Below are positions 15,450 to 64,000 of a DNA stretch of 64,000 nucleotides, piece after piece (the stretch's first letter is position 1; each line of letters opens with the position of its first letter). A program made the translations under genes and the position numbers. Source of the stretch: a virus. The notes beneath the pieces are model-generated. The model saw nothing but the letters and a program-made list of their open reading frames with translations. It was not told where the DNA came from and made no database searches. The stretch covers positions 32,001 to 96,000 of IMG/VR virus record IMGVR_UViG_3300028831_000229. The stretch is one strand, 5' to 3'.

Positions 15450-15461
15450 GGAACAGCAACG

Positions 15462-15683: not shown

Positions 15684-15711
15684 ACAACCAACGAGAAGAG
15701 GAGAAGAGAAG

Positions 15712-16112: not shown

Positions 16113-16263
16113 GCAAGACACTGCCACCACATCCGTTGCCGACGTGCGCGTGCCCACCACCGCCGGTGTACACCGGATTCTGGACGGACCTGTCTTGGCG
16201 CAAGTGGATCGCGATGCACTGCAACTGCTACGGCCACCTGATGTGGCGTGCACTGGACAAGCC

Positions 16264-16479
16264 ATGAAGAAATTCTACCTTTACCACGCGCCTCCCTTCG
16301 GGCGGCGGAAGTACATCGCCACGGTGAAGGCGGAGAACGACAAGGAGCTGCGCAAGCTGGTGAAGCGCGAGCACCCGAAGTTGACCGAGTGGGAGGCGCT
16401 GCGGACGAAGTACGTGAAGGACAAGATGACCGGCGAGATCTCGCTGCCACCGCGCGGCACTGAAGACAAGGAGGACTGA
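16264..16479 (+). CDS. Hypothetical protein
   Basis: Typical codon usage. Confidence 0.5.
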   Translation: MKKFYLYHAPPFGRRKYIATVKAENDKELRKLVKREHPKLTEWEALRTKYVKDKMTGEISLPPRGTEDKED

Positions 16480-16480
16480 C

Positions 16481-16798
16481 GTGAGCTACGTGTTCAAGGT
16501 TGTGCACAGCAAGGACGGCGTGGAGGACGTGTACCTGGTGACCGGGTCGTCACGGCGGGACGCTGAGACGAAGGTGCTCGACATGCTGTACGAGCGCCGT
16601 CATCGTGCACGGCCGGACCTCACGTCAGAGGAACGCGAACGCGACGTGTTCGGGTTGCAGTCGGCGTCCGTGTTCCAGGACTACACCAACAGCGCGCTGT
16701 GCAGGATCAACAACTGCTCGGTGAACGCGACGGTCTTCAACCCGGACCCGCCGTACAAGCTCTACTCGTTCAACCGCAAGACCGGAGGAGTTGAATGA
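16481..16798 (+). CDS. Hypothetical protein
   Basis: aggagg RBS. Confidence 0.55.
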   Translation: MSYVFKVVHSKDGVEDVYLVTGSSRRDAETKVLDMLYERRHRARPDLTSEERERDVFGLQSASVFQDYTNSALCRINNCSVNATVFNPDPPYKLYSFNRKTGGVE

Positions 16799-16958
16799 CG
16801 GACGAAGAACATCGACTGGAGGTCAAGCGCGGCTTTGTCGCCGGCTACCTCCACGGACGTAGCTCTCTCGGCGACTACGAGGCTGCCGGGAAAGAAGCTG
16901 ACGCGGCGTTCGAGCGCTGGTGGCACTGGCGGCACATCTCGTCCAAGGACACGCAGCC

Positions 16959-18797
16959 GTGAGGGCGCTCAGTCTCGACATCCGCAACTTCCTGTCGTTC
17001 GGTCGCGCGAAGATCCAGCTCGCGCGACGCGGTCTCGTGCTGATCGAAGGAGAGAACAAGGACGACCCGACAGCGCGAAGCAACGGCGCTGCGAAGAGCG
17101 CCATCGTGGAGGCGTTCGTATGGTGCGTCCAAGGCACCACGCTGCGCGGCTACGTCGGCGACGACGTCATCAACCGCAAGGTCGGCAAGAACTGCCGGGT
17201 GACGACCGTGTGGAAGGACCGCGGCTCGAAGTGGAAGATCGTGCGGACTCGTCAAGACGACAAGCTCAAGACGAGCCTGAACCTTTACCACGATGGTCGT
17301 CGCGTCACAGGGTCCACGGTCGCTGACACGCAGGAGCTTATCGACCGTATGCTCGGCATGACGGCGAAGACGTTCCTCTCCTCCGTGGTGTTCGGGCAGA
17401 GCAACGCGTACCGCTTCAGCTCGCTGACCGACACCGAGCAGAAGGCCATCCTCGATGAGGCGCTCGGCATTGAGGCGTACGCGGAAGCTGGCGTGGCGGC
17501 ACGTGACAAGGTCAGCGTCCACAGCGTGAACGTCGACACCCTCAAGCAGACGTTCGACGACACGGCAGCAGAGATCGAGAAGGCCGAGCAGGAGCGTGAC
17601 CGTGCTGGTGATCGCGAGCGCACCTTCAAGGCTGACCAGGAAGCGAAGCTCAAGGAGGTGCAGGGTGAGCTTGACGAGGTCAACGAACGCCTGACTTCAC
17701 TCGTCAAGTCGGACGTCAAGACGCTGCGTGACCAGCTGAAGACGATGCGGGACGTGCTTCGCAACCGGGAGCGTGACGTCGAGAGCCTGAAAGAGAACGC
17801 CGCGAAGATGCAGGCTGAGCACGGAACGCTTCACCGCGAGGTCGGCCGGCTGGAGCGTGAGATCTCACGCCACGAGGAGCTGAAGGGCGACTGCCCGACG
17901 TGTGGTCAGGAGATCGATGCGGACGACCAGGCCGAGGTGCTCTACGACATGCGCAAGCAGCTAAAGAACGCCCAGGCTTCCGCACGCGAAGCGCAAGAGG
18001 CTGCTGACAACGCCGACCGCAAGGCGCGCGCAGAGGCTTCGCGACTCCACAAGGAGCGCGAGGGTGTGTCCGAGGTGGAAGACGCGATCGAGCGCGCCGA
18101 GAAGCTCAACACGAAGCGCGCCGGCCTGGTGGAACGCGCGAAGGCTCTCCAGCGCCGGCTGGACGAGATCAAGGAGGAGAAGAACCCGTACCGCCGGCTG
18201 GTGAAGGAGGCCGAGCAGAAGGTCACCAAGCTGATCGAAGAGCGCGAGCGTGTGCGCGCCGACCTCGCCAAGGAAGAGGCCGAGTTGGAGTTGTACGAGT
18301 TCTGGCAAGGCGCGTTCGGCGCCAAGGGACTGCGGTCGCTGCTCATCGACACCGCGCTCCCGATTCTGAACGAGCGTGTAGATCACTACGCTCGCGCCAT
18401 CACCGGCGGCAGCATCCACATCGAGTTCAAGACCGAGAGCCTGTTGAAGAGTGGCAAGACGGTCGACAAGTTCGAGGTGGCGGTGACCAACGAGCACGGC
18501 GCAGGCAACTACAAGGGCAACAGCGCTGGTGAGAAGGCGAAGGTCGACCTCTGCGTCGGCCTGGCGTTGCAAGCTCTGGTGGCATCGCGCGCGCAGTCCG
18601 GGATCAACGTGGCGTTCTTCGATGAGCCGTTCGAGTCGCTGGACGACGCCGCGATCGAGCGTGTCGCAACGCTGCTGACCGAAGAGCTGACCGACCGCGA
18701 GTCGGTCTTCGTCATCACCCACAACGAGGCGCTCAAGGCGTTCTTCCCGAACGTCCTGACCGTCGTCAAGGAAGGAGGCATGTCCCATGTCGAGTAG
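16959..18797 (+). CDS. sbcC: SbcC/Rad50/gp46-like SMC ATPase
   Basis: NFLSF, Walker A variant G.N...SNGAAKS, Q-loop FGQ, CPTCGQ hook, coiled coils, SAGEK signature, FFDEPF, ITH. Confidence 0.93.
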   Translation: MRALSLDIRNFLSFGRAKIQLARRGLVLIEGENKDDPTARSNGAAKSAIVEAFVWCVQGTTLRGYVGDDVINRKVGKNCRVTTVWKDRGSKWKIVRTRQDDKLKTSLNLYHDGRRVTGSTVADTQELIDRMLGMTAKTFLSSVVFGQSNAYRFSSLTDTEQKAILDEALGIEAYAEAGVAARDKVSVHSVNVDTLKQTFDDTAAEIEKAEQERDRAGDRERTFKADQEAKLKEVQGELDEVNERLTSLVKSDVKTLRDQLKTMRDVLRNRERDVESLKENAAKMQAEHGTLHREVGRLEREISRHEELKGDCPTCGQEIDADDQAEVLYDMRKQLKNAQASAREAQEAADNADRKARAEASRLHKEREGVSEVEDAIERAEKLNTKRAGLVERAKALQRRLDEIKEEKNPYRRLVKEAEQKVTKLIEERERVRADLAKEEAELELYEFWQGAFGAKGLRSLLIDTALPILNERVDHYARAITGGSIHIEFKTESLLKSGKTVDKFEVAVTNEHGAGNYKGNSAGEKAKVDLCVGLALQALVASRAQSGINVAFFDEPFESLDDAAIERVATLLTEELTDRESVFVITHNEALKAFFPNVLTVVKEGGMSHVE

Positions 18798-48264: not shown

Positions 48265-49077
48265 ATGGGCAAGCAGAAAATCAAGTCGGCGGCATCGATC
48301 ATCAAGGAGAGCATCAGCAAGGACCCTGGACCGTTCAAGGCCATCCGCGTCTCCACCTGCGTGCCGAACGACTGGAACCCGAACAAGATGGATCCGTCGA
48401 CGCGTGACAAGCTCGTCCGCGGCATCAAGATGCTGCGCGACCAAGGTGCTGAGGTGCCGCCGATCATCGTGCGTCGGCACCCCGACAAGACCGTTGCGAA
48501 GTACCAGATCATCGACGGCTTCCATCGCTGGGATATCTACCGCGCCGATGGCATCGAGCGCATCAACGCCTTCGTCCTCAACGTCGACACGAAGACGGCG
48601 ATGATCCTCACCGACACGCTGAACTACCTGCGGGGCGAGCCGGCGCCGGACGATTACGCGGAATACTTCCGCCGGCTCATCACGGAGACGCAGACGCCAG
48701 TCGCCGAGCTTGGCGAGCTGGTGCACAAGAACCCCGATGAGATCGAAGCCATCCTCGATGCCTACGACATCGAGATCGAGCACATCGACGTCGTGGTGGA
48801 AGGGGACGGCGAGTCGCGCGCGAAGGACGAAGACGACGTGTTCGTCGAGGTGAAGTTCGTCATGTCGCGGTCTCAGCAGGAAGTCGTCGAGCGTGAGCTG
48901 TCACGCATCGGTGCGCTGCTCAACGGCAAGAACATCCGCGGACGCGCTCTCGAGTACATGGCGGTCAACAGCTCGCAGACCGAGCTGGACAACCTGATGG
49001 GTCAGGGCGTCGCCGACGTGCCGAAGAAGGAGAAGCTCTCGAAGCTCAAGAAGAAGATGAAGGAGAAAGCAGCATGA
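48265..49077 (+). CDS. ParB/Srx N-terminal domain protein
   Basis: PNDWNPNKM, PPIIVR, YQIIDGFHRW, N..RG. Confidence 0.85.
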   Translation: MGKQKIKSAASIIKESISKDPGPFKAIRVSTCVPNDWNPNKMDPSTRDKLVRGIKMLRDQGAEVPPIIVRRHPDKTVAKYQIIDGFHRWDIYRADGIERINAFVLNVDTKTAMILTDTLNYLRGEPAPDDYAEYFRRLITETQTPVAELGELVHKNPDEIEAILDAYDIEIEHIDVVVEGDGESRAKDEDDVFVEVKFVMSRSQQEVVERELSRIGALLNGKNIRGRALEYMAVNSSQTELDNLMGQGVADVPKKEKLSKLKKKMKEKAA

Positions 49078-50970: not shown

Positions 50971-52818
50971 ATGCAGGTCGAACCGACTCCACCAGCGTAT
51001 CCGGTCACACCGGACATGCGAAAGGCGTTCGCCGACGCGTTCGAGGAGCTGCGCGACAAGGCGTGGACTCTCGAGCCGTCCACTGCGGTGAAACCCTCAC
51101 CGCAGCAGCCGAAGTCGTGGCTCACCGATCCGTACGCACTGATGGAGACGGTCGGCATGGGCTACCGCAACGCACCGAGCGTGTTGACGTTCGATACGCT
51201 GCGCATGACTGGCGATCGGAACACCGTCATCGCGGCAATCATCCTCACGCGCGTCAATCAGGTCGCTGCGTTCTGCCGCCCGCAGGAGAACAAGTACAGC
51301 GTCGGCTTCAAGATCAGGTTGCGCGGCAGCGCGCACATGCATCGCCGGCCGACCAAGGAAGAGAACGCGAAGGCGCAGTTCATCGAGCACTACCTTCTCA
51401 ACACCGGGCTCGAGTTCAACCTCGGACGTGATGGCTTCGAGCAAGGCGTGCGCAAGCTCGTTCGCGACTCGCTGACCTACGACCAGATGACGTTCGAGAA
51501 GGTCCGCACGTTCGGCGGTCGGCCGCACAGCTTCCACGTCGTGCCGGCCGACACCATCCGCATCGTGGCGCCGAAGATCCCCAAGGGCACGCCACCGGAT
51601 CGAGCGGATCTGAAGCGCCAGCTCAAGTACGTGCAGGTCATCAACGGCGAGATCGTCACCGAGTACACGCACGACGAACTCGCGTTCGCGGTGCGCAACC
51701 CGCGCTCGTACATCAAGGTCTACGGCTACGGTCTGCCGGAGATCGAGGTGCTGATGACGACCGTCACCTCGCACCTCTGGGCGGAGGAGTGGAACCGGCG
51801 GCAGTTCTCGCAAGGCTCGACGATCAAGGGCGTCGTCAACTTTCAGGGCAACATCCCGGCTCAGCAGTTCGAGGCGTTCAAGCGCCAGTGGTACGCGCAG
51901 ATCAGCGGTGTGAGCAACGCGTGGAAGACGCCGGTGGTGAACACCGACGGCATGACGTTCATCCCGCTTCAAGGGAACAACGTCGAGATGGGGTACCAGA
52001 TGTGGATGGAGTACCTCATCAAGATCGCGAGCGCCATCTACCAGATCGATCCGGCCGAGATCAATTTCGACCTCCGTGGTGGCTCGCAGCAGCAGCCGCT
52101 CTTCATGTCGTCGAACGAGGCGCAGCAGAAGGTCAGCAAGGATCGTGGGCTCCAGCCGCTGCTCCGGTTCGTCGAGGACACCGTCAATCGGCATGTGGTC
52201 TGGCAGATCGATGACGCCTTCGAGCTGGCGTTCGTGGGCCTCGATGCCAAGACCGAAGACCAGGCGATGCAGCTGCGCCAGCAGCAGGTCACCACCATCT
52301 ACACGCTCAACGAGGTGCGTGCGATGGAGGACTTGCCACCGCTGAAGCACGGCGACATGCCGCTGAACCCTGTCTACGCTGGTGCCAAGCAGCAAGCTGA
52401 CATGGCGGAGCAGCAACAGCAGATGGGTGGCATGCCTGGCGGCGCACCTGGCGGTGGAGGCATGCCTGGTGGTCAGCCAGGCATGCCTCCTGGCCAGGAC
52501 CAGCAGGATCAAGGTCAGGAGGCCGAGCCTGGCGGTCAGCCGGCGCCAGCACAGCCGTATGCGGGTCGCTTCGCCGGCAAGCAGCCTGGTCAGGAAGAGA
52601 AGCAAGGCGCCGACAACCTGCGGCGTTTTCACGACGAGGCCAGCGACGATTCGACCTCATCGCCGGAGCGTGGTGACCACGAGACGTCATCGGACAGCGA
52701 CGACTCGTCGGAGGACAAGCGCTACGTTCATCTTCACGACTGGGACTCGACAGTGCACGCGTCCGTCAACGACAACGACCTCGTCAAGTCGACCGTCGTC
52801 TACGACGTCATCGAGTAG
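50971..52818 (+). CDS. Portal protein (SPO1/Twort/phage K-like)
   Basis: VRDSLTYDQMTFEK, NPR...YGLPEIE, NR.QFSQGSTIKG, FKRQW...GVSNAWKTPV, YQIDPAEINF, SKDRGLQPLLRFVED. Confidence 0.92.
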   Translation: MQVEPTPPAYPVTPDMRKAFADAFEELRDKAWTLEPSTAVKPSPQQPKSWLTDPYALMETVGMGYRNAPSVLTFDTLRMTGDRNTVIAAIILTRVNQVAAFCRPQENKYSVGFKIRLRGSAHMHRRPTKEENAKAQFIEHYLLNTGLEFNLGRDGFEQGVRKLVRDSLTYDQMTFEKVRTFGGRPHSFHVVPADTIRIVAPKIPKGTPPDRADLKRQLKYVQVINGEIVTEYTHDELAFAVRNPRSYIKVYGYGLPEIEVLMTTVTSHLWAEEWNRRQFSQGSTIKGVVNFQGNIPAQQFEAFKRQWYAQISGVSNAWKTPVVNTDGMTFIPLQGNNVEMGYQMWMEYLIKIASAIYQIDPAEINFDLRGGSQQQPLFMSSNEAQQKVSKDRGLQPLLRFVEDTVNRHVVWQIDDAFELAFVGLDAKTEDQAMQLRQQQVTTIYTLNEVRAMEDLPPLKHGDMPLNPVYAGAKQQADMAEQQQQMGGMPGGAPGGGGMPGGQPGMPPGQDQQDQGQEAEPGGQPAPAQPYAGRFAGKQPGQEEKQGADNLRRFHDEASDDSTSSPERGDHETSSDSDDSSEDKRYVHLHDWDSTVHASVNDNDLVKSTVVYDVIE

Positions 52819-52827: not shown

Positions 52828-55509
52828 ATGAAGCTCGTCATCGACCTCTCGAAGGGCCGCCCGAAGGGGTCCACCAACAAGGACCACAAGTGGATCGCGC
52901 GCTACACGAACGCGAAAGGCGAGATCGTGCGCGTCTACCCGGACAAGCGGCATGGTGTGATGACGGACAAGGAGCAGCTCAAGCTGCATCCTGGTGTGTC
53001 GATCAACCAGGTCGTGAGCGACGTGATGATCGGCGGTCCGACTGGTGAGACGAAGCGCGATGGTCGTCCGAGCGTGCGCGAAGGCGAGTTCGTGCGCTAC
53101 GAGGTGGCACACGAGAGCGAGCTGCGTGACCCGCGCAATCGCGAGAACTACACGCGCGACGCGATCTCTCGCGAGAAGGTCGGGCAGTACCACGTGTTCG
53201 GCTATCCGAAGGTGCACGCCATCGAGCGCGATGAGAAAGAGAAGCCGGTGCGCTTCGCCGGCTACACGCACATCGAGTACCACCCGTCGGTGCGTGCGCA
53301 CGGCTACCGGACGCCGAAGAAGATCGAAACCTTCAAGGTCGAGCCTCACGAGATCAAGACGACGGAGGAACAAGCTCCGCAACGCGGCTTCAACGCGGCG
53401 GAGCTGCCGCTCCATGGAGACCGTGGTCCTCAGCGCATCGCTGGCGGCTCTGTGTCCGGGCGCGGTCCGGTAGCGCCTCCGCACACGAAGAAGGAGCACG
53501 ACTTCTCGATGGAGTCGATCGCTCGACGTGAGCAGATCGAGAACATGCGTCTCGACGAGCAGGTCGATCCGCTCTCGTTCGCGGCGAAGCTGTACGACAA
53601 GGCAGCGTTGAAGGCCAAGGAGAAGGCGACACCCGGTGCGCGTTCGGTGCTCGAGTTCCAGGACTGGCAGCTCGCGAAGTACCACGATCGTCAAGAGCTG
53701 ATGGACAAGCTCCAGAAGCAACCTGTCGGCGCGCTCATCTCGCTCGGCTACGCCAAGCCGACTGCGACGTCTCGCAAGCTCAACGAGGCGCTCATCGCGG
53801 AATGGACGCCGATCATCATGGGCCTGAGCGGCGACAACTTCGCTGCGTTCAAGGAGACCGACGACTACCGCGCCGCGGCAGCGCGCGATGCAGAGCGCAC
53901 GAAGCGCGGGCTCCAGCGCAACAAAGGAGGCACCGACTCGCGGAAGTACGTCAACGCGTACAAGCGAACCGTGGTGAGCGACCTCTTCCAGGCTGGCGCC
54001 GAGAAGCTGCTGCGCATCGCTCGGCAGTACGAGGTCGACACGGAGAATCCGCGCCATCGCTTCGACAAGCTCGCCTACGCTTCGGTAGCGAATGAGATCC
54101 GCAAGCAGAGCCGCATCAAGGCAGAGGAAGCTGGCCTCCTCGTACCCGTGAAGCACGAAGGCGAGATCGAGCAGGCGATGCGCGAGAACGCGCGCGGCGG
54201 CGGATCGATGGAGCCGCTCTCGCCGCATGAGGCTGCCGAGCTGAAGCAAGTCACGCCGGTTGCGCGAACCGCGCTCGCCGAGATCATGCCGAAGCTCCCG
54301 GATGCATACAGGCGTGTCGTGGAGGCACGCCTGTGGCTCGACGAGCCGTCGGACGGTGGCGTGCCATTGCTCGATGCTCCGCAGTCTCGCGCGGAGACGA
54401 TGACGCGCAAGCAGCGTCACGAGAAGCTCGATGAGAAGATCGCAGAGGCTGAGGAGCGCGGAGAGACCGTGGCGCGCGACCGACGCAAGCCGCGTTCGTG
54501 GGAGCGCGAGTGGACCGGCTTCGGTTCGATCGCTGACAAGTACCAGACCTGGATCGATCCAGAGACCGGTACCTCGTTCAACATCGACGAGTACAGTGTT
54601 GGCCACCAGCGTGAGGTACTCCAGAACTACTACCGCATGGGCGTCGCTCACATCATCCGCGAGCTGTCGGTGCCCGTGACGCGCACGAAGCCTGGGAAGC
54701 ACGACGCGCCGGTTTCGCATCCTCGTGCGTTCCAGCCGAGCGCCGAGTGGAAGCAGCGCGAGAACCACGTCATCGTGCCGCTCACGAACAAGGAAATCGC
54801 GCGCCTCTCACCGGAGGAGCAACTGACCTACACCGCAGTCGGAGGTGAACCCCGTGTGCTCACGCAACAAGGCAAGGCTGTCAAGCGCTACCTCCAGATC
54901 GAGACCAAGCTGGCTACTCAGAATCGCCGTCGGTGGATGGCTCCTGGTCATCAGCGCGAGGTGGATACTTCGACCGTCTCGATCGAGAAGCTGAAGAAGC
55001 CGCGCGCCGTCGGTTGGAAGATCGAACACACCTCTCCGCTCGAGAACCAAGCGGTGCGCTTCTTCACGTCGTCGGCCAACCAGGCGCTGGCTGGTCGTCT
55101 CGGGATGCATGATCTGCACGAGTACGCGCAGCAGGTGCACCAGCAGAACGTCTCGCCGGGCACGTACGCGGAGAACCTCTACCGCCGAGCGCGAAAGCAC
55201 TACAAGGTGTTCCACGAGGTCAACAACATGACCGACAAGCAGCTCGATCGTGAGCACAGCCAGCACGCGCGTCGTGTGCAGGTGCTTCAGAGCAAGCTGC
55301 GCACGGTGAAGGACGACGACACGCACAAGCGGATCCTCCACGACATCTCGGTGTCCGAGGGGCGCGTGCACATCATGGACTTCGTTCGGCAGACGCGTGG
55401 CACCACCAAGAGCATGGTGGTCACCAAGAAGGACACCCCATTGTCGCTCATCAAGGCGTTCCTCGACTACGACTTCGAGCTGGATCGGCTCGGTGTGGAG
55501 ATGAACTGA
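52828..55509 (+). CDS. Large head-region protein containing sigma70-like regions 2 and 4
   Basis: EALIAEWTPII; SDLFQAGAEKLLRIARQY...F.KLAYASVANEI; ALAEIMPKLPDAYRRVVEARL; N-terminal LSKG. Confidence 0.65.
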   Translation: MKLVIDLSKGRPKGSTNKDHKWIARYTNAKGEIVRVYPDKRHGVMTDKEQLKLHPGVSINQVVSDVMIGGPTGETKRDGRPSVREGEFVRYEVAHESELRDPRNRENYTRDAISREKVGQYHVFGYPKVHAIERDEKEKPVRFAGYTHIEYHPSVRAHGYRTPKKIETFKVEPHEIKTTEEQAPQRGFNAAELPLHGDRGPQRIAGGSVSGRGPVAPPHTKKEHDFSMESIARREQIENMRLDEQVDPLSFAAKLYDKAALKAKEKATPGARSVLEFQDWQLAKYHDRQELMDKLQKQPVGALISLGYAKPTATSRKLNEALIAEWTPIIMGLSGDNFAAFKETDDYRAAAARDAERTKRGLQRNKGGTDSRKYVNAYKRTVVSDLFQAGAEKLLRIARQYEVDTENPRHRFDKLAYASVANEIRKQSRIKAEEAGLLVPVKHEGEIEQAMRENARGGGSMEPLSPHEAAELKQVTPVARTALAEIMPKLPDAYRRVVEARLWLDEPSDGGVPLLDAPQSRAETMTRKQRHEKLDEKIAEAEERGETVARDRRKPRSWEREWTGFGSIADKYQTWIDPETGTSFNIDEYSVGHQREVLQNYYRMGVAHIIRELSVPVTRTKPGKHDAPVSHPRAFQPSAEWKQRENHVIVPLTNKEIARLSPEEQLTYTAVGGEPRVLTQQGKAVKRYLQIETKLATQNRRRWMAPGHQREVDTSTVSIEKLKKPRAVGWKIEHTSPLENQAVRFFTSSANQALAGRLGMHDLHEYAQQVHQQNVSPGTYAENLYRRARKHYKVFHEVNNMTDKQLDREHSQHARRVQVLQSKLRTVKDDDTHKRILHDISVSEGRVHIMDFVRQTRGTTKSMVVTKKDTPLSLIKAFLDYDFELDRLGVEMN

Positions 55510-58500
55510 TGCGGATGCACAAGCCAGCTACCGTTCTTCCTCTGCGTATCGCGCAGGTCCCGCTGCCGGCGTACCCGGTGCTCGGCAACATCAAGCCTGG
55601 TGGCGTGCTGCTCAGCGGCAAGCTCGCGAGCGCGGTCGACACGCTCAAGCTGGACACGCGCGACATGCCGCCGTCGCGCTTCAAGAGCGTGCGTGACGAC
55701 ATCTCGCGCTACAGCCCGATCCCTGTGACGCGTGTGGCGTTGCGACGCAGCGAGCACGCGTACATCGGGATCATCGACTCGAACAACGAGCCGTACATCT
55801 TCGCGCTCAACAGCCAGGGCATCCTCGTCAAGCGCGCGCCGGACGCCGAGCACGCGTGGCAGCTGTTCGACCACTACATGGATGCCGAGCGCGCAACGGC
55901 GCTCGAGACACGGCGCTACGTCGCGGCCAAGGAGCAAGCATCACTCGTCATCAAGGCCGACATCAAGCAGCCGGGTTCACGTGGCGGGAAGTTCTACTTC
56001 GACAAGCACGGCAAGGTGCGCTACGGCAAGCAGCCGATGCACGATCACCACGTGCACGTCGAACTGCCGGCAAAGCACGAGCTGGAAGGTGACGCGGCAG
56101 AGCTGCACAAGCACGTTCGCAAGCAGAACCCTGCCACCGTACACGAGGCGCGGAAGCACATCCGGTCGTGGATCAAGGACAACTACAGCGCGAACGCCAA
56201 GCAGATCGATCAGACGACCGCGCACATGCTGCGCTACTTCCACGAGGAGGGTGCGCTCCACCTGCACCAGCACGATACGCAGCCGACCGCACAGCCGACC
56301 AAGGACGTTCCGCACTTCTTCAAGAAGCGCGAGGCGCTCACGCGTCCGGTTCTGCCATCACCGTTCGACGCGCAAGGGACGCGTCTCCTGGTCAACGGAT
56401 CGCCTGTGCGGCTGTCGGCTGACGCCGAGCACGCGTGCTACGCGTTCGCCAAGCGCTTCCTCGTCAACGAAGGCACGGTGAAGGGTCACGCCGAGTTCGT
56501 GCGTGGCTTCGAGAAGAGTCTCCAGTCGATGGGCGTGCCGAAGGGCACCTACGACTACAAGAACTTCGTCAAGCGCATCACCACCGAGCCGGAGAAGGAG
56601 AAGGCACCGAAGAGCAAGGAGCAGCCGACGCCGAAGACGCATCCTCACCTCTTCATCAAGCAGGACGGTCAGTTCGTCCGACTCTCGGACGTTCGGACGC
56701 CGGCAGGTAACTTCTACACCGGCAAGGGCAAGCGCGGTACGTGGGCTCGTGCTCTGCGCGAAGAGGACATCACGATGAACGTCGCCAACGGCGGCGCTCC
56801 GAAGGGTTGGAAGGGCAAGGTCATCTTCGATCCCACGAAGGACTACTACCTCACGTGGCGTCATCCCGACACCGACGAGATCGGCTACGTCTATCCGTCG
56901 CGCGCGTCTGCCTACCAGAGGAAGTTCGAGGAGGCGTCGAAGCTCGGTCTCAACATCGACCGCATCCGCGAAGGCGTGGTGCGTGACATCGAGAAGAGCG
57001 GCAACAGCATGCCGGAGCGCGTCGCAGCGCTCTGCACCTACTTGATCGACAAGGAGCACTTCCGCGTGGGAGAAGAGTCGCACGCTGAGGACACCGGCAC
57101 GTTCGGTATCGGCTCGCTGCGCGTCGAGCACGTGAAGGTGGACGGCAAGCACGTCATCTTCGATTTCCCGGGGAAGAAGGATGAGCCGTGGCGCCGCGTC
57201 GTCGACTTCAGCAAGATGCCGGAGGCGCTCCACATCATCAAGAGCTGCCTGGCGCACAAGCACAAGAAGGATCGCGTCTGGGAAGAGCTGGGTGGTGGCT
57301 GGTCGGTGGACAGCAAGGTCATCAACGAGTATCTCGACGGCTACTCGAAGGACGGCGTGAAGTTCACGGCGAAGATGTTCCGCACGTTCCACGCGAACAA
57401 GTACATGAAGAAGATGCTCGACACCCTCGAGACGCTGGCCGCAGAGCACGGCTGGGATGATGCGACGGTGAAGAAGATCTACAAGGGGTTCAAGGTCAAC
57501 GACAGAGCCGGCAAGAAGCTGCTCGACATGAAGGCGCCTGGTGGCGGCACGGTGCGCCAGGCACTCGGTCTCGAGGAGAATCACGGCGCCAAGGGCAAAG
57601 GCAAGGCGATCATCGGCGTGCTTCCGACCATCGCAACGAAGCTCGGTCACACGGTGTCCAGCTGCCGCAACAGCTACATCGATCCGGTGCTCGTGACGCC
57701 GTTCGGCGCGAAGCATGGATGGGACGAGCGCACGCTCGGCGAGAAGAAGACGCGTGACGATCTTCCGGCGTTCGAGAAGAAGCACGTCGCGAAGCCGGCG
57801 AAGCAACCGAAGGCGCCTGCATCGCCGATGAAGAAGGCCGGGATTCCGAGCCATCAAGAGCTGGCAAAGGCCAGCGAGAAGCTGCTGACCAAGGTCACGC
57901 AGAAGCACGCCGATCTGGCTCCCATGATCGATAGCTACAAGGAGACGGCGATCAAGCGGCGCTGGAACGTGCCGGCAGAAGCGTGTGGCAATTGCGATCG
58001 TGCGACCGGAGAGTTCGTCTCACAGGCACCGGCGTCGGCTGGCTTGAAGAAGTACCGCTTCGACACCTTCACGCCGGAGGGTATCGCGCGCGTTCAGAAG
58101 CTGTACGGGATGAGCGACAAGACCATCGCCGAGATGCGGAAGCGTGACCGCAAGTCGATCAAGGACGGTCACGCTGATCCGGAAGACATGTTCCACGAAG
58201 TCGCGGTCACGCCAGACGGCACCGTGATCGACTGGACGGCCAATCAGTTTGCACAGAGCGACAAGACGCTGCCCGTTCCTTTTGTGTACAAGATTGACCA
58301 CACAAAGAACAGCAAGCCGCACAGCGGCATCGAGGACGAGGAGGCGTACGCGAAGGCGCTGCCGTACGGTCACGTGGCCTACGCGCGGCACTCGAAGACC
58401 GGCAAGCTCGTCCAGGTGAAGGCGAAGGGCGTGAAGCCGGTGCAGATGAACACGCAGGCACCTTTCCTTGTGCACCCCGATCAGCAGCCGTTCCATCCCA

Positions 58501-61085
58501 AGAAGAACGAGAAGGACTACAAGGTCTGGCGCACCGTGCATGATGCGAAGCCGCAGACCTACGACGAGACGGTCCGCGCGATTCACGGCGCGATCAAGCA
58601 CCACTTCGGCGCGGATGACGAAGAGCTGACCGACAGCGTGGTGGATCATTTCCAAGAGGAAGGGGCGATGCACGCGCCGGATCATGAGCCAGAGGACAGC
58701 GTTGACGAAGATGACGATCACATCAAGCGTGACTATCTCAAGATCGACCACGGGAAGTACGCGACCGACATCGCAAATGCACGCTCTGCGGCACACGGCG
58801 CCGTTCTCTCCGCAGCACGCAACGCTGTGTACGAAGCTCACGGTGCGCATCTCTTCACGGCATACACGGAGCGGTTGTTCCGTGATCGGAAGGAGACTCC
58901 GTACGGCGGGTTCAAGATCGACGAAGGCGTGCACCAGCTGGCCGATCAAGCTCAGGCGAATGTGCAGGAGGAGGCGCAACGTGCAGGCGACGAGGCTGAG
59001 CGTCAAGCAGGAGAGCACGCCGATCAGGACATCGCAGACAGACGGCACGCGAACGAGATGCTCCGGCAAGGGCTTGTCACGTTCGAGCACATCGATCCGA
59101 CGCCGGCTGAGCACGCGCTCGAACGTATGAACGATGCGCTTCCGAAGGTGATTACTCAGATCAGTAACGCCATAAAGCAGGTCGCACCAGCGTTGGCATC
59201 GTTCTACGACGTGGAGAACAAGTTCGAGGATGAACCGGAGCACGAGGACGTTACCTTCGAGCGGTCGGATGTCAGTGACCCGGAGACCGACCTCTCTGAG
59301 ATCCTCGACTTCATGAGCAACTACGGTGGCGACGACGCTGTTACCAGTGATGACTTGGAGCCGGAGTCTGTCGATTTGCCGGAACTCCCCGATGAGCCGT
59401 CCTTTGACGGCGATGATGAAGAGGACGCGGAAGACGACGAGACCTACCAAGCCGAGTTGGCAGCGTACAACGGTGTGATCAAACAGCGCGCGGCTACGCT
59501 GAATGCTGCACGCTTGAAGTATGCCGAGCAAGCCGTGACCGGGCTGTCGAAGTTGGAGACGGTGCTGAAGAACGCGACAGCGACGCTCAAGGCCAGAGGG
59601 AAGGAGGCGACCGCTGCACGCGAGAAGCTCGAGAAGGACTTCGATGAGAAGACCGGTGACGGCAGCTTCGATGACGATCTGGTGTTCATGAACCAGAAGG
59701 AGTTCCCGCAGGTCGCGAAGGAGATGAACCCAGAGGAAGAGGAGGACGAAGAGATCGCTGATGAAGGTGAAGGCGATGAAGGCGACGAGGAAGAGGAGCC
59801 GCAGGAGGACGCGCGCTATGACGACGCACGTCGTGCTGCGCAGACACTGCGTGACCACGTCAGAAGCATCATCGACGGTGACTTCGAGAGCGCGTACGAC
59901 GGTGAAGAAGTCACCACGGGTCTGGAGTCCGCAGTTGAGCAGGTGCGCACCTTGCGGAAGGAGTACGCCTCGGTCATCAAGAAACTGTCGAAGAAGAAAG
60001 GCAAGGTCTCCAAGGCGGTTCCGATCATCCAGCGACCGGGCGTACGCGGTGGCCATTTCCACTTCAACACGAAGGGCAAGGTCGTCTACGAACGGCACAT
60101 CACATACAACGCGCCAGCTCGGTCATGGCGTGGCTTCGATGACCTGGCGTTTCGTCGTGTGATGGACGAGCACAAGCACGTCGAGGTCGCGCACAAGAAG
60201 CACGTCAAGCGTCTGGCTGACGAAATGAAGACCCTGCGTGCAAAGAAGCAGATCGTTCCGAAGCACCGCCGTGCAGCTCTTCAGCTGAAGATCAACAAGC
60301 TACGCGCTCAGCAGCTCGACCATCGCATGGTCGTTGCTGCTGCTCGCGAGCAGCGGCTGCGCGTCAACAAGCAGCGAGCTGTTGCGAAGCAGAAGTTCGT
60401 GGCTACCCAGCGCCTGGCCTCGAAGAAGAAGCAGACCGCGACGGCGAGGAAGCGTAAGCGCGAGATGATCATGCCGATTGGCGTGGGCATGGGGATCGGC
60501 ACGCACACGATCAGGGAGAAGCCGGTAAAGCCGAAGGTCAAGACGTTGGAGCGCATGGTCTATCGCAAGGACGTGGAGACCGATCCACCTGTGAAGGAAG
60601 CGCCGAAGGTCGAGCCTGCGCCAGAACAGGAGCCCAAGAAGGAGCCGCAGACCGCACAGGAGCGCGCAGCAGCTGCAAGCGCTGCCAAGTGGGATCCGCA
60701 GTCCAGGTCGTGGGTGGTCAACGGGAAACCGATGGTCACGCCGGCTTCGGAGAAGTACCGCGAGGCTCCTCGCGAAGTGGTGTCCTACAAGCAGAAGACC
60801 TACGAGGAGCAGGTGGCCGAAGAGCAGCGAAAGCGTGCGTACTTCGACGCGAGCGCCAAGCGTGCCCGAGCGAAATACGAGGCGCTGCGTGCAGCCAAGG
60901 AAGCGGAGGTCGTGCACCAGAAGGAGCACGCACCACCGCCTGTGGAGGAGAAAGAAGCCCAGGGCATGAAGAAGCGCGGCGTGCTCTCCAAGCTCGGTGG
61001 CCTCTTCCGTCGGAAGAAGGACACTGGCACAATCACCGCGTCGTTCGTGGACTCGCACAACATCTTCAAGGTGAGCTACCTATGA
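55509..61085 (+). CDS. 1858-aa multidomain protein (putative polyprotein) with an embedded DNA topoisomerase IB
   Basis: FRVG, SLRVEHV, FDFPGK, TAKMFRTFHA, LGHT...SYIDP; plus a C..H..D module and acidic/basic regions. Confidence 0.9.
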   Translation: MRMHKPATVLPLRIAQVPLPAYPVLGNIKPGGVLLSGKLASAVDTLKLDTRDMPPSRFKSVRDDISRYSPIPVTRVALRRSEHAYIGIIDSNNEPYIFALNSQGILVKRAPDAEHAWQLFDHYMDAERATALETRRYVAAKEQASLVIKADIKQPGSRGGKFYFDKHGKVRYGKQPMHDHHVHVELPAKHELEGDAAELHKHVRKQNPATVHEARKHIRSWIKDNYSANAKQIDQTTAHMLRYFHEEGALHLHQHDTQPTAQPTKDVPHFFKKREALTRPVLPSPFDAQGTRLLVNGSPVRLSADAEHACYAFAKRFLVNEGTVKGHAEFVRGFEKSLQSMGVPKGTYDYKNFVKRITTEPEKEKAPKSKEQPTPKTHPHLFIKQDGQFVRLSDVRTPAGNFYTGKGKRGTWARALREEDITMNVANGGAPKGWKGKVIFDPTKDYYLTWRHPDTDEIGYVYPSRASAYQRKFEEASKLGLNIDRIREGVVRDIEKSGNSMPERVAALCTYLIDKEHFRVGEESHAEDTGTFGIGSLRVEHVKVDGKHVIFDFPGKKDEPWRRVVDFSKMPEALHIIKSCLAHKHKKDRVWEELGGGWSVDSKVINEYLDGYSKDGVKFTAKMFRTFHANKYMKKMLDTLETLAAEHGWDDATVKKIYKGFKVNDRAGKKLLDMKAPGGGTVRQALGLEENHGAKGKGKAIIGVLPTIATKLGHTVSSCRNSYIDPVLVTPFGAKHGWDERTLGEKKTRDDLPAFEKKHVAKPAKQPKAPASPMKKAGIPSHQELAKASEKLLTKVTQKHADLAPMIDSYKETAIKRRWNVPAEACGNCDRATGEFVSQAPASAGLKKYRFDTFTPEGIARVQKLYGMSDKTIAEMRKRDRKSIKDGHADPEDMFHEVAVTPDGTVIDWTANQFAQSDKTLPVPFVYKIDHTKNSKPHSGIEDEEAYAKALPYGHVAYARHSKTGKLVQVKAKGVKPVQMNTQAPFLVHPDQQPFHPKKNEKDYKVWRTVHDAKPQTYDETVRAIHGAIKHHFGADDEELTDSVVDHFQEEGAMHAPDHEPEDSVDEDDDHIKRDYLKIDHGKYATDIANARSAAHGAVLSAARNAVYEAHGAHLFTAYTERLFRDRKETPYGGFKIDEGVHQLADQAQANVQEEAQRAGDEAERQAGEHADQDIADRRHANEMLRQGLVTFEHIDPTPAEHALERMNDALPKVITQISNAIKQVAPALASFYDVENKFEDEPEHEDVTFERSDVSDPETDLSEILDFMSNYGGDDAVTSDDLEPESVDLPELPDEPSFDGDDEEDAEDDETYQAELAAYNGVIKQRAATLNAARLKYAEQAVTGLSKLETVLKNATATLKARGKEATAAREKLEKDFDEKTGDGSFDDDLVFMNQKEFPQVAKEMNPEEEEDEEIADEGEGDEGDEEEEPQEDARYDDARRAAQTLRDHVRSIIDGDFESAYDGEEVTTGLESAVEQVRTLRKEYASVIKKLSKKKGKVSKAVPIIQRPGVRGGHFHFNTKGKVVYERHITYNAPARSWRGFDDLAFRRVMDEHKHVEVAHKKHVKRLADEMKTLRAKKQIVPKHRRAALQLKINKLRAQQLDHRMVVAAAREQRLRVNKQRAVAKQKFVATQRLASKKKQTATARKRKREMIMPIGVGMGIGTHTIREKPVKPKVKTLERMVYRKDVETDPPVKEAPKVEPAPEQEPKKEPQTAQERAAAASAAKWDPQSRSWVVNGKPMVTPASEKYREAPREVVSYKQKTYEEQVAEEQRKRAYFDASAKRARAKYEALRAAKEAEVVHQKEHAPPPVEEKEAQGMKKRGVLSKLGGLFRRKKDTGTITASFVDSHNIFKVSYL

Positions 61086-63162: not shown

Positions 63163-64000
63163 ATGAACCTCGACGATCTATTCGGTGGCGTCATCCTCGG
63201 TGGCACCACACTGGTGAAGGCTCAGGTCATCACCCCGGTTCGGGCAGCACGTCTGCCTGCGTTGCGCGATCTCACCGCAAAGCTCGAAGCGCTGTACGAC
63301 GAGCGCCTTTCGCTCATGATGGAAGACATCGACCGCGTTCTCGCGAACGCGGATGCGCGCAAGGCACTCGGCTTGTACGTCGTCGACGGGGGACTCTCCG
63401 GTGGATCGGACCTGCGCAAGGCTGTGCTGCACGAGGTTCAACAGCCGCAGTTCATCAACGATCTCTTCAAGGCCGCTCCGAAGACGGTGCCGACGCGTGT
63501 CGGCGGCAACAAGAGCGACCAAGGCACCGCACAGAAGTTCGAGCACGGCACGTACAGCACGCACCAGACCCCCAAGGGGAAGACGCAGCTGACGTTCCGC
63601 AGCCACACTGGCGTGACCGAAGACCTCGGTCAACACGGTGACCCCAAGGCAGTCGAGAGCGCGCAGTCGAAGCACCTCGCGTCTCACGGCTACGCGCCGA
63701 CTGGCAAGAAGGTCGGTCGTCCGTCTACCGGACAGAAGGCCGAGCGCAAGGAAGTGACGCAGGCGACCGCTGGCTCTCGCGGTGGCAAGTATTACGTCAC
63801 GGCGAGCGGCAAGATTCGCTACGGCACGAAGCCGCAAGGCGAGTTCGCGCGCGAAGCCGACCCGTCCGAGATCGCGCAGCACCTCTCGCACTACCGTCCG
63901 TTACCGTTCATGGGGACGAATGGCAACGACGCGAAGCTGATCAAGCACCTCATGGACAACGGTGAGGAGCTTGGCTTCTCCGACACGGACATCCAGTTTC
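63163..64000 (+). CDS. 3'-partial large head-region protein (absent from the ORF track because it has no stop in the window)
   Basis: Open frame MNLDDLFGG...LVKAQ...LRKAV...LFKAA...GSRGGKYYVTASGKIRYG... runs to the window end. Confidence 0.8.
   Translation, partial: MNLDDLFGGVILGGTTLVKAQVITPVRAARLPALRDLTAKLEALYDERLSLMMEDIDRVLANADARKALGLYVVDGGLSGGSDLRKAVLHEVQQPQFINDLFKAAPKTVPTRVGGNKSDQGTAQKFEHGTYSTHQTPKGKTQLTFRSHTGVTEDLGQHGDPKAVESAQSKHLASHGYAPTGKKVGRPSTGQKAERKEVTQATAGSRGGKYYVTASGKIRYGTKPQGEFAREADPSEIAQHLSHYRPLPFMGTNGNDAKLIKHLMDNGEELGFSDTDIQF

What the first reader, a model, noticed from the sequence alone, without database searches (positions are those of the whole stretch)
56322..57740. Phage topoisomerase IB with a eukaryote-type N-terminal cap but no linker, embedded in a virion-region polyprotein
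All five catalytic-residue motifs are visible: R (FRVG), K (FPGKK), R (MFRT), H (LGHT), Y (SYIDP). The upstream ~200 aa track the eukaryotic/thaumarchaeal Top1 core subdomains I-II as I recall them: PVLPSPF ~ PVFAPPY; LVNGSPVRLSADAEHACYAFAK ~ YYDGKVMKLSPKAEEVATFFAK; PAGNFYTGKG ~ PPGLFRGRG; LREEDITMN ~ IMPEDIIIN; KFEEASKL...IDRIR ~ KYETARRL...VDKIR; SLRVEHV ~ SLRVEHI. Short bacterial and poxviral TopoIBs lack this region. The His-to-Tyr spacing (LGHTVSSCRNSYIDP) is the short linker-less bacterial/poxviral type. This mosaic form matters for TopoIB evolution. Poxviruses package TopoIB to support early transcription, and an injected phage equivalent would be a notable parallel (inference).
Basis: partly seen in the sequence, partly recalled or inferred. 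Interest (0 to 1): 0.87.

Follow-up and report, generated by a model that had tools for sequence, protein, structure and literature searches.

The report
Phage head-gene topoisomerase IB with eukaryote-type clamp
An uncultured 118-kb tailed phage encodes, among its head-assembly genes, a DNA-relaxing enzyme (topoisomerase IB) that combines the large DNA clamp of eukaryotes and archaea with the short catalytic tail of bacteria and poxviruses. This form has not been described and bears on how the enzyme family evolved.

Summary
Window 56322-57740 (aa 272-744 of the 1858-aa ORF 55509-61085) is a type IB topoisomerase. Pfam Topoisom_I scores E 4e-33 and Topoisom_I_N 25.6 bits against a cut-off of 25. 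The AlphaFold model (pLDDT 95.5) aligns with human TOP1 at Z 26 over 406 residues, and its first 194 residues align with the yeast N-terminal fragment at Z 15.6.

All five catalytic residues are present and kept in 12 of 12 full-length relatives. The His sits 9 residues before the Tyr, as in short bacterial forms. There is no linker and no Topo_C_assoc domain.

- **Unnoticed insert:** a family-specific 44-aa insert lies upstream of the His.
- **Not a trimmed long form:** catalytic-core trees exclude the family from the archaeal/eukaryotic clan (99/99), but its place between long and short forms is unresolved (AU p 0.44). It looks like an old separate lineage, not a recent chimera.
- **Rarity:** about a dozen metagenomic members among 1.8 billion cluster representatives, and none in 50,697 phage records.
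- **Position:** the gene lies between portal and a DarB-like helicase, head protease and capsid genes, and this position is kept in two other phage contigs.

Virion packaging and polyprotein cleavage remain inference. Earlier notes of this scan report head-module topoisomerase IB in other phages, so the new element here is the clamp.

The parts
55509..61085 (+). 1858-aa ORF that carries the topoisomerase. It is a multi-module protein of the head-gene block.
   Evidence: A single open frame with GC3 0.81, like its neighbours. Pfam finds only PF01028 in the whole protein, and nothing in aa 1-271 or 745-1858.
55509..55955 (+). N-terminal region (aa 1-149), conserved in the family. The model shows a 4-stranded sheet plus a long helix.
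   Evidence: Aligned in family members. AlphaFold pLDDT is 85-94 for aa 60-140 and below 50 for aa 11-53. No clear PDB fold match, best Z 5.0. No atlas hit.
55956..56294 (+). Repeated unit, copy 1 (aa 150-262): a Gly/Arg-rich beta-hairpin (PGSRGGKFYFDKHGKVRYG) plus a small helical, winged-helix-like domain.
   Evidence: Model strands 161-164 and 170-173, helices 195-246. Weak winged-helix-type matches, Z 5-7. The unit recurs in other head-block proteins.
56322..56903 (+). CAP clamp (aa 272-465 of the ORF), the eukaryote/archaeal Topoisom_I_N-type DNA-binding fragment.
   Evidence: PF02919 25.6 bits against a cut-off of 25, and 26.0 and 44.1 bits in relatives P0152 and P0155. Alone it finds 6z01 at E 6.5e-5. 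Yeast fragment 1ois Z 15.6, rmsd 3.3, 189 aligned, over model residues 1-194.
56904..57485 (+). Catalytic core with Arg (57063-57065), Lys (57174-57176) and Arg (57381-57383).
   Evidence: PF01028 E 3.9e-33. Alignments to CsTOP1, Leishmania, human and Deinococcus enzymes. Residue positions.
57486..57617 (+). Family-specific 44-aa Lys/Gly-rich insert (GFKVNDRAGKK...GAKGKGKAIIG) between the second Arg and the His.
   Evidence: Present in 12 of 12 full-length family members. The short forms lack it: the distance from the residue before the second Arg to the Tyr is 45-63 in 47 of 53 CAP-less proteins, against 90-103 in the family. Modelled as short helices and bridges with block-mean pLDDT 86 or higher.
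57618..57740 (+). Short tail with the His (57648-57650) nine residues before the active-site Tyr (57675-57677). No linker.
   Evidence: LGHTVSSCRNSYIDP aligns contiguously with LGNTPAVTRGSYICP of Deinococcus TopIB 2f4q. His at Tyr-9 in 12 of 12 family members and in 0 of 79 long forms. No PF14370 hit at E up to 1.
58341..58706 (+). Repeated unit, copy 2 (around aa 945-1066).
   Evidence: jackhmmer domain E 1e-13. Hairpin YGHVAYARHSKTGKLVQVKAKG and HFQEEGAMH, matching YFHEEGALH of copy 1.
60021..60300 (+). Repeated unit, copy 3 (about aa 1505-1597), followed by a strongly basic helical tail.
   Evidence: jackhmmer domain E 2.9e-17. Hairpin PGVRGGHFHFNTKGKVVYE. Charge profile.
50971..52818 (+). 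Portal protein gene, two genes upstream.
   Evidence: PHROG 12, E 1.7e-53. 50-56% identical to the portals of L002 and L009.
52828..55509 (+). 893-aa ORF of unknown family between the portal and the topoisomerase ORF.
   Evidence: No PHROG or Pfam hit. 30% identical over 843 columns to the post-portal ORF of L002.
63163..64000 (+). Start of a 1713-aa SNF2 helicase-type giant protein. It runs on beyond the window.
   Evidence: PHROG 62 E 1.4e-39; PF00176 and PF00271. Its L009 counterpart also hits the PHROG 'DarB-like antirestriction'. It carries the repeated unit.

Best explanation
The stretch encodes a catalytically competent type IB topoisomerase. This kind of enzyme nicks one DNA strand through a 3'-phosphotyrosine bond, lets the duplex swivel and reseals it, without ATP or metal (family knowledge).

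Its architecture is its own:
- a full eukaryote/archaeal-type CAP clamp;
- a catalytic core about equally close to long and short forms;
- a 44-aa Lys/Gly-rich insert;
- a bacterial/poxviral-type tail in which the His is 9 residues before the Tyr.

It belongs to a small, old, phage-borne lineage.

The enzyme is one module of a giant head-block protein. I infer that it is loaded into the procapsid as cargo and released into the cell with the DNA. There it would relax the incoming genome, or the host chromosome, at a moment when no phage protein has yet been made. An enzyme that needs no cofactor suits this task.

Shown: domain identity, fold, conserved active site, gene position and synteny.

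Inferred: activity, packaging, ejection and target.
For: **Enzyme**
- PF01028 E 3.9e-33 and PF02919 above cut-off.
- CsTOP1 E 3e-29 over aa 10-369.
- Model pLDDT 95.5, matching human TOP1 at Z 26.0 over 406 residues.
- Arg, Lys, Arg, His and Tyr are kept in all 12 full-length family members.

**Own lineage**
- Only 8 of 1.84 billion representatives score E 1e-30 or better, and the next hit is at 2e-29.
- The family forms one clan at 99/98, and the long-form clan of 34 rows at 99/99 excludes it.

**Cargo**
- Gene order is portal, 893-aa ORF, topoisomerase ORF, SNF2 giant protein, weak MuF-like ORF, head protease, major capsid protein.
- The same order holds in two other phage contigs whose portals are 50-56% identical while the topoisomerase is 28-40% identical.
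- A hairpin-plus-small-domain unit is shared by the topoisomerase ORF (3 copies), the SNF2 ORF and, in L002, four ORFs: the post-portal, topoisomerase, 453-aa and SNF2 ORFs.
- Other giant metagenomic proteins join short topoisomerase IB domains to polyvalent-protein hallmarks: LPD1, ADP-ribosyltransferase, ParB_N, Mu-like_Pro.
- Iyer et al. 2017 (PMC5512222, passages read) argue that such phage proteins encoded beside portal and MuF genes are packaged and injected.
Against: - No virion proteomics, activity assay or expression data exist, and no member comes from a cultured phage.
- Only one recognisable enzymatic domain sits in this ORF, so it is not a textbook polyvalent protein.
- The MuF-like hit is below Pfam's cut-off (18.4 against 29.6 bits).
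- The shared unit was found by an iterative search in a tiny database, and its role as a loading tag is a guess.
- Cultured jumbo-phage topoisomerase IB genes lie among replication-type genes, not head genes, so phage topoisomerase IB need not be virion cargo.
- Pfam support for the CAP is borderline in this protein and fails in three relatives: P0005 13.8 bits, P0008 11.8, P0009 none.
Confidence: 0.55

Rival explanations
1. It is an active topoisomerase IB that works inside the infected cell late in infection and is not carried in the virion. For example, it could relieve the twist that builds up while concatemeric DNA is processed and pumped through the portal. The gene would sit in the head block only because it is needed at that time.
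For: The gene lies next to the portal in a late-type block. Topoisomerase IB genes of cultured jumbo phages sit beside ssDNA-binding protein, thymidylate kinase and glycosylase genes and are read as DNA-metabolism enzymes (Iyer et al. 2021, PMC7824862, passage read).
Against: The enzyme is fused to more than 1300 aa of non-enzymatic, highly charged sequence. It shares a repeated unit with the neighbouring giant SNF2 protein. Its position between portal and head protease is kept in three diverged phages. Related domains occur with polyvalent-protein hallmarks.
Confidence: 0.25
2. The domain acts as a sequence-specific strand transferase on the phage's own DNA (end joining, circularisation, or resolution of replication or recombination intermediates), not as a general relaxase.
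For: Topoisomerase IB belongs to the tyrosine-recombinase superfamily; the model also matches Xer and Cre recombinases at Z 10-12 over the catalytic domain. From recall, not from a call: poxvirus topoisomerase is sequence-specific and can resolve junctions in vitro. A ParB-like gene lies nearby at 48265-49077.
Against: The full CAP clamp and closed-clamp model match the swivelling enzymes (human TOP1 Z 26) far better than any recombinase. No repeat or target site was looked for or found.
Confidence: 0.1
3. The domain is an inactive DNA-clamping remnant used only as a DNA-binding or structural part of an internal head protein.
For: No activity data exist. The rest of the ORF looks structural: charged, helical and repetitive.
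Against: All five catalytic residues are kept in 12 of 12 full-length family members, which are only 44-76% identical to this protein over the topoisomerase stretch. The model has very high confidence.
Confidence: 0.05

Closest known systems
Archaeal and eukaryotic TOP1 (long form): Caldiarchaeum CsTOP1 (PDB 6z01) and human TOP1 (1a35, 1k4t)
   Same: Same CAP plus catalytic-core clamp: 6z01 E 3e-29 over aa 10-369, and human TOP1 Z 26.0 with 406 residues aligned. Same catalytic residues.
   Different: - No linker and no Topo_C_assoc domain; the His is 9 residues before the Tyr. Human TOP1 has a linker at residues 636-712, and it is shorter in archaea (PMC8748870, passages read).
- The core lies outside the long-form clan (99/99).
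- CAP identity is only 17-28%.
- There is an extra 44-aa insert.
Short bacterial and poxviral topoisomerase IB (Deinococcus 2f4q/3m4a, variola 2h7f)
   Same: Same contiguous His/Asn-to-Tyr tail; LGHT...SYIDP aligns with LGNT...SYICP of 2f4q. The family cores score 2.7-20 bits higher on a short-form HMM than on a long-form HMM in 9 of 9 members.
   Different: The short forms have a small N-terminal domain (PF21338 in the Arthrobacter protein) in place of the approx. 195-aa CAP; 3m4a matches only model residues 197-465. Their Arg-to-Tyr distance is about 50 residues, against about 98 here.
Jumbo-phage topoisomerase I (Achromobacter phage Motura, Pseudomonas phages Lu11 and PaBG, Rhizobium phage RHEph12), noted by Iyer et al. 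2021 (PMC7824862)
   Same: Phage-encoded type IB catalytic domains with PF01028. In the trees they fall on the non-long side.
   Different: - Only 23-28% identical, and only over aa 170-410.
- No PF02919 hit and no match to my CAP profile.
- Stand-alone proteins of 541-605 aa in DNA-metabolism-type neighbourhoods.
Linker-less long-form topoisomerase IB of NCLDV-like contigs (P0036, P0102, P0068, P0106, P0072; locus L010)
   Same: CAP plus catalytic core with no, or almost no, linker; His to Tyr is about 10-17 residues.
   Different: They carry PF14370 and the CNH / TSKANY(L/I)DPR long-form motifs, and nest inside the long clan. They are therefore long forms that lost the linker. L010 has TBP, capping-enzyme and ligase genes, so it is not a phage.
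Phage polyvalent / virion-delivered proteins (Iyer et al. 2017, PMC5512222) and poxvirus virion topoisomerase
   Same: A giant protein encoded beside portal, MuF-like and head-protease genes and next to a giant SNF2 protein (its L009 counterpart also hits a DarB-like PHROG family). From recall: poxviruses carry their topoisomerase IB in the particle.
   Different: This ORF has only one recognisable enzymatic domain. Packaging is not shown.

Membership tests
Type IB topoisomerase (Pfam PF01028 catalytic core) | Profile match above the curated cut-off | tested here: met
   115.2 bits against a cut-off of 23.7, E 3.9e-33. It is the only such match in the 117,941-bp genome.
Type IB topoisomerase (Pfam PF01028 catalytic core) | Catalytic Arg-Lys-Arg-His-Tyr set in register | tested here: met
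   R248, K285, R354, H443 and Y452 of the 473-aa stretch. The first three align with the same motifs in CsTOP1, Leishmania, human and Deinococcus enzymes, and the His (Asn in Deinococcus) and the Tyr align with Deinococcus 2f4q; with CsTOP1 only the Tyr motif pairs, in a separate stretch that scores below zero (-2.9 bits). All are kept in 12 of 12 full-length relatives. Calling these 'the pentad' rests on recalled literature.
Type IB topoisomerase (Pfam PF01028 catalytic core) | Fold of the clamp around DNA | tested here: met
   Model pLDDT 95.5. Foldseek E 7e-24 to 1k4t with TM 0.67-0.70. VIA Z 26.0, rmsd 3.3, 406 aligned.
Type IB topoisomerase (Pfam PF01028 catalytic core) | Mg- and ATP-independent relaxation through a 3'-phosphotyrosine intermediate | not testable with these tools
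   Needs an enzyme assay.
Long-form TOP1 (eukaryotes, Nitrososphaerota and other archaea) | CAP domain (Pfam PF02919, Topoisom_I_N) | tested here: met
   25.6 bits against a cut-off of 25, over profile positions 11-210 of 213. P0155 scores 44.1 and P0152 26.0, but P0005 13.8, P0008 11.8 and P0009 none. Structure: 1ois Z 15.6 over model residues 1-194.
Long-form TOP1 (eukaryotes, Nitrososphaerota and other archaea) | Linker between the His and the Tyr-bearing C-terminal domain | tested here: not met
   The His is 9 residues before the Tyr in 12 of 12 family members, and in 0 of 79 long forms with a Tyr motif found.
Long-form TOP1 (eukaryotes, Nitrososphaerota and other archaea) | C-terminal domain (Pfam PF14370, Topo_C_assoc) | tested here: not met
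   No hit at E up to 1 in the window protein or in five relatives. The archaeal control P0156 scores 77.9 bits.
Long-form TOP1 (eukaryotes, Nitrososphaerota and other archaea) | Catalytic core inside the long-form clan | tested here: not met
   The long clan of 34 rows is supported at 99/99 and excludes the family (74 rows, 162 columns, LG+C20+F+G4).
Short-form bacterial/poxviral topoisomerase IB | Small N-terminal domain (PF21338 in bacteria) instead of a CAP | tested here: not met
   No PF21338 hit; a full CAP is present. The Arthrobacter control scores 80.7 bits on PF21338.
Short-form bacterial/poxviral topoisomerase IB | His or Asn 9 residues before the Tyr | tested here: met
   His in 12 of 12 family members; Asn or His in 46 of 53 CAP-less proteins. 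The tail aligns contiguously with 2f4q.
Short-form bacterial/poxviral topoisomerase IB | Catalytic core groups with short forms | tested here: inconclusive
   The quick LG+G4 tree puts it on the short side (95). The careful mixture-model tree puts it beside the long clan (82/90). The AU test does not reject the short-side placement (p 0.44).
Phage polyvalent / virion-cargo proteins (Iyer et al. 2017) | Encoded in the portal/MuF/head-protease block of a phage | tested here: met
   synteny is kept in L002 and L009. The MuF-like hit is below cut-off.
Phage polyvalent / virion-cargo proteins (Iyer et al. 2017) | Several domains of disparate activity in one polypeptide | tested here: inconclusive
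   Only the topoisomerase is recognisable in 1858 aa. Three copies of a repeated unit suggest several modules.
Phage polyvalent / virion-cargo proteins (Iyer et al. 2017) | Physical presence in the virion and delivery into the host | not testable with these tools
   Needs virion proteomics on a cultured relative, and none is known.

The most novel reading that the evidence does not exclude
This family, together with the more distant L009 protein, would be a surviving branch of the 'missing' viral topoisomerase IB group that Forterre and Gadelle postulated in 2009. It would keep an ancestral-like architecture: a full CAP clamp with a contiguous His-Tyr tail. Archaeal/eukaryotic TOP1 would then derive from it by linker insertion, and bacterial/poxviral enzymes by CAP reduction. 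It would also be carried in the phage head and injected with the DNA, a bacterial-virus counterpart of the poxvirus virion topoisomerase.
Probability: 0.2. Interest if true: 0.85.

Novelty: new variant of a known kind. Interest (0 to 1): 0.66.

Why it matters
Type IB topoisomerases have been seen as two separate worlds. One is the long archaeal/eukaryotic TOP1, with a CAP and a linker. The other is the short bacterial/poxviral enzymes, with a different small cap (PMC8748870 and PMC2647321, passages read).

[quoted passage not shown] A phage lineage that has the long-form clamp and the short-form tail, and whose core sits between the two groups, gives that question something concrete to test.

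It also offers a compact natural TOP1-like clamp without a linker for studies of swivel control and camptothecin sensitivity, which depend on the linker and C-terminal domain in the CsTOP1 work.

If the enzyme is indeed head cargo, it adds DNA relaxation to the functions that phages deliver with their genome.

Tried and rejected
**Close DNA or protein relatives in cultured phages.** Megablast and tblastn at E 1e-5 found none among 50,697 records. At E up to 1, 12 records gave weak hits over the catalytic part only.

**Relatives in one genome per prokaryote species.** None turned up with the two patterns used, so I have no evidence of a prophage copy. This is a pattern-limited scan, not proof of absence. 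The metagenome-contig scan gave one distant locus, L003 (23% identity), which I did not study.

**Recent-chimera reading.** Rejected, because CAP identity to every sampled long form is 17-28% and the family CAPs form their own clan (98).

**The other His (ENHGAKG) as the catalytic His with a mini-linker.** Rejected, because it is not conserved in the family while LGHT is.

**Function of aa 1-271.**
- Pfam, PHROGs and the protein atlas gave nothing.
- The fold had pLDDT 70, and the best PDB matches were Z 7.0 or lower: winged-helix-like for aa 183-257, and Z 5.0 or lower for aa 55-148. This is not enough to name a fold.

**Function of aa 745-1858.** No Pfam or PHROG hit. BLAST against L002 and L009 found only the short repeated hairpin.

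**Contexts of P0141 and P0110 in viral contigs.** None found.

**Names for 10 unnamed metagenomic proteins.** Only generic names came back: 'hypothetical protein' for P0031 itself and 'DNA topoisomerase-1' for a shorter member of the P0106 cluster.

**My first two regular expressions for the repeated hairpin.** They failed. jackhmmer replaced them.

**Papers.** Nine full-text searches found no paper on a CAP-bearing topoisomerase IB in phages or on topoisomerase IB as a polyvalent-protein domain. Supplements were closed, so the domain lists of PMC5512222 and PMC7824862 could hold it.

**Rows left out of the trees.**
- One search kept 138 of 191 catalytic cores: near-copies at 62% identity or more to a kept row, and rows with more than 30 gaps, were dropped.
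- One search kept 74, with thresholds of 48% identity and 15 gaps; L002_topIB, P0154 and P0006 were dropped as near-copies or truncated.
- One search kept 68 of 110 CAP segments.
- Labels 'long', 'short' and 'CAP' come from my own profile and motif rules, not from taxonomy. Most rows are unnamed metagenomic proteins.


Full report
**1. What is there**

The window is bases 32001-96000 of a 117,941-bp IMG/VR virus record that CheckV rates 100% complete. It has about 63% G+C, and nearly all genes are on the + strand.

The finding lies inside one open frame, 55509-61085, of 1858 aa.

**2. Identity of the domain**

- **Pfam.** Pfam gives Topoisom_I (PF01028) at E 3.9e-33. When the stretch is scanned alone it also gives Topoisom_I_N (PF02919) at 25.6 bits, against a cut-off of 25, over profile positions 11-210 of 213.
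- **PDB by sequence.** The best match is the archaeal CsTOP1 of Caldiarchaeum (6z01), E 3e-29, query 10-369 against chain 13-382. Next come Leishmania (1e-18), human TOP1 (4e-14) and Deinococcus TopIB (4.5e-10, aa 200-295 only).
- **Halves searched separately.** The first 194 aa still find 6z01 at E 6.5e-5. The rest finds 6z01 (3e-19), Leishmania (4e-11), Deinococcus (1.2e-10) and human (5e-9).
- **Structure.** An AlphaFold2 model built on 116 aligned sequences has pLDDT 95.5 and pTM 0.89. VIA-align gives human TOP1 1a35 Z 26.0 (rmsd 3.3, 406 aligned, model 1-472 against human 217-746). The yeast N-terminal fragment 1ois gives Z 15.6 for model 1-194. The Deinococcus enzyme 3m4a gives Z 19.5 but only for model 197-465. 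Foldseek agrees.

So the CAP clamp of the long-form enzymes is really there. The CsTOP1 paper states that bacterial and viral enzymes have a different capping module (PMC8748870, passages read).

**3. The tail**

In the family the conserved His is the one in LGHT. The other His (ENHG) varies.

The His lies 9 residues before the Tyr in 12 of 12 full-length family members. Asn or His occupies that position in 46 of 53 CAP-less proteins, and neither does in any of 79 long forms. HMMER aligns the tail contiguously with the Deinococcus enzyme, LGHT...SYIDP with LGNT...SYICP. With CsTOP1, only the Tyr motif pairs, in a separate stretch that scores below zero (-2.9 bits).

No Topo_C_assoc (PF14370) hit appears at E up to 1 in the window protein or in five relatives, whereas an archaeal control scores 77.9 bits. 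'No linker' is therefore right.

It is present in all family members. It makes the Arg-to-Tyr distance about 90-103 residues, against 45-63 in 47 of 53 CAP-less proteins. The insert is modelled with high confidence as short helices and bridges, not as a coiled coil. I could not see where it sits in space.

**4. How rare it is, and where it belongs**

An exhaustive HMMER search of 1.84 billion cluster representatives gave 2362 hits at E 1e-3 or better but only 8 at 1e-30 or better. Those 8 are the protein itself plus seven at 45-76% identity. The next hit is at 2e-29.

The 90%-identity collection adds four more members. All are metagenomic, and the next hit is a Nitrososphaerota TOP1 at 4e-33.

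Catalytic-core trees (162 columns):
- The quick LG+G4 tree of 138 rows puts the family on the CAP-less side of a branch with SH-aLRT 95.
- The careful LG+C20+F+G4 tree of 74 rows makes the 34 long forms one clan (99/99) that excludes the family.
- In the same tree the 9 family rows form one clan (99/98).
- It places the family, the L009 protein P0031 and P0141 beside the long clan with only 82/90 support.
- An AU test does not reject holding the family with the short forms (p 0.44).

The family cores score 2.7-20 bits higher on a short-form profile than on a long-form profile in 9 of 9 members.

In a CAP-only tree the family is again its own clan (98). The window protein's CAP is 17-28% identical to long-form CAPs.

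My reading is that this is a separate, old lineage lying between the two big groups. It is not a long form that lost its linker, and it is not a recent chimera.

True linker-less long forms do exist: proteins of 418-439 aa with the His about 10-17 residues before the Tyr. They nest inside the long clan. A relative of one of them lies on a contig with TBP, capping-enzyme and ligase genes, that is, a giant-virus-like contig, and carries PF14370.

**5. Gene context**

Upstream lie a ParB-like gene (48265-49077) and the portal (50971-52818, PHROG 12, E 1.7e-53), then an 893-aa ORF of no known family.

Downstream lie:
- a 1713-aa SNF2-type giant protein (from 63163; PHROG 62, E 1.4e-39);
- a 317-aa ORF with a sub-threshold MuF hit;
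- the head maturation protease (E 8e-51);
- the major head protein (E 2.6e-94; SPO1-like, 38% identity);
- the tail sheath.

Two other viral contigs keep this order.
- **L002:** the topoisomerase protein is a separate 728-aa ORF, 40% identical.
- **L009:** the domain (28% identical over aa 282-747) is the C-terminal part of a 1251-aa ORF. The SNF2 protein there also hits a 'DarB-like antirestriction' PHROG.

Their portals are 50-56% identical to the window's.

Family members end 15-30 residues after the domain, at 717-818 aa. The window's 1858-aa frame is therefore a fusion with about 1100 further residues that are highly acidic in places and strongly basic near the end.

**6. A shared unit**

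ORF aa 150-262 form a Gly/Arg-rich hairpin plus a small, weakly winged-helix-like domain (VIA Z 5-7). This unit recurs:
- twice more in the same ORF (domain E 1e-13 and 3e-17);
- twice in the SNF2 ORF;
- in four ORFs of L002: the post-portal ORF, the topoisomerase ORF, the 453-aa ORF, and twice in the SNF2 ORF (an iterative search in a very small database).

This fits a common handle on several head-block proteins. Its role as a loading tag is a guess.

**7. Cargo reading**

Iyer et al. 2017 argue that giant multi-domain phage proteins encoded beside portal and MuF genes are packaged and injected (PMC5512222, passages read). In the main text of that paper, 'topoisomerase' occurs only in a reference title.

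Among my hits, other giant proteins join short topoisomerase IB domains to hallmarks of such proteins:
- two topoisomerase domains plus an ADP-ribosyltransferase;
- a histidine phosphatase plus Mu-like_Pro;
- ParB_N;
- LPD1.

Earlier notes of this scan also report head-module and portal-fused topoisomerase IB in many other phage genomes (AI notes that I did not check). Together with the synteny, this makes virion cargo the best reading, at roughly 55%. Nothing here shows packaging, cleavage or delivery.

**8. What is known**

- Forterre and Gadelle 2009 list viral Topo IB only for poxviruses and mimivirus, and postulate an undiscovered viral group as the source of the bacterial enzymes (PMC2647321, passages read).
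- Iyer et al. 2021 note a phage-specific topoisomerase I in Motura, NCTB, phiRSL1, Lu11 and PaBG (PMC7824862, passage read).
- The three of these that I looked at (Motura, Lu11, RHEph12) have no detectable CAP and lie in DNA-metabolism-type neighbourhoods.
- My paper searches found nothing on a CAP-bearing phage enzyme. Supplements were closed.

**9. Verdict**

It overreaches on 'mosaic' and 'polyprotein', and packaging remains an inference.

I rate this a new variant of a known kind, with interest 0.66.

Noticed in passing
window 55956-56294, 58341-58706, 60021-60300; SNF2 ORF from 63163 (hairpin near 63772-63825); L002 ORFs 5383-9264, 9266-11452, 11418-12779, 13868-18250: A hairpin (G-x-R-G-G-x-aromatic ... 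G-K) plus a small helical domain recurs in several giant proteins of the head block of this phage and of a related contig, as if it were a common handle on different cargo modules.
   Followed up: partly
window 63163-64000, continuing to genome 100304 (L004:163-5301): A 1713-aa SNF2 helicase-type giant protein lies in the head block. Its counterpart on L009 also hits a PHROG named 'DarB-like antirestriction'.
   Followed up: partly
window 52828-55509: An 893-aa ORF directly after the portal has no Pfam or PHROG family. It is 30% identical to the 1293-aa post-portal ORF of L002.
   Followed up: partly
L010:5001-6269 (IMG/VR contig with TBP, capping-enzyme and ligase genes): A giant-virus-like contig encodes a 422-aa long-form topoisomerase IB with essentially no linker. 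Four similar unnamed proteins of 418-439 aa exist.
   Followed up: partly
proteins P0020, P0060, P0080, P0100, P0110 (metagenomic, unnamed): Short-type topoisomerase IB domains occur in proteins of 1160-1630 aa together with ADP-ribosyltransferase, histidine phosphatase plus Mu-like_Pro, LPD1, HARP and ParB domains. Topoisomerase IB thus looks like a recurrent module of polyvalent-type proteins.
   Followed up: partly
L009:9878-13633: A second, much more diverged phage protein (1251 aa) carries a CAP-like region plus topoisomerase IB core at its C-terminal end, in the same gene position. In the trees it sits near the family and the jumbo-phage enzymes, on a long branch.
   Followed up: partly
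window 58569-58748, 59289-59468, 59649-59828 (approx. ORF aa 1021-1080, 1261-1320, 1381-1440): Three very acidic tracts (net charge -14 to -24 per 60 residues) are followed near the end of the ORF by a very basic helical stretch (net +14 to +16). Earlier scan notes on other phages mention small acidic partners of head-borne topoisomerases. I did not test any link.
   Followed up: no
L004:9982-11388 (genome 104982-106391): The major capsid protein is SPO1-like, 37-39% identical in the 12 listed best of 778 matching records. Most of the 778 are phages of low-G+C Firmicutes, although this genome has about 63% G+C.
   Followed up: no
window 48265-49077: A ParB-like protein gene (PHROG 2159, E 1e-11) lies just upstream of the head block. 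It is conserved in L002 and L009.
   Followed up: no
ORF residue 723 (window 57675-57677): By coincidence the active-site Tyr is residue 723 of the 1858-aa ORF. That is the number I recall for the human enzyme's Tyr, which could cause confusion in notes.
   Followed up: no
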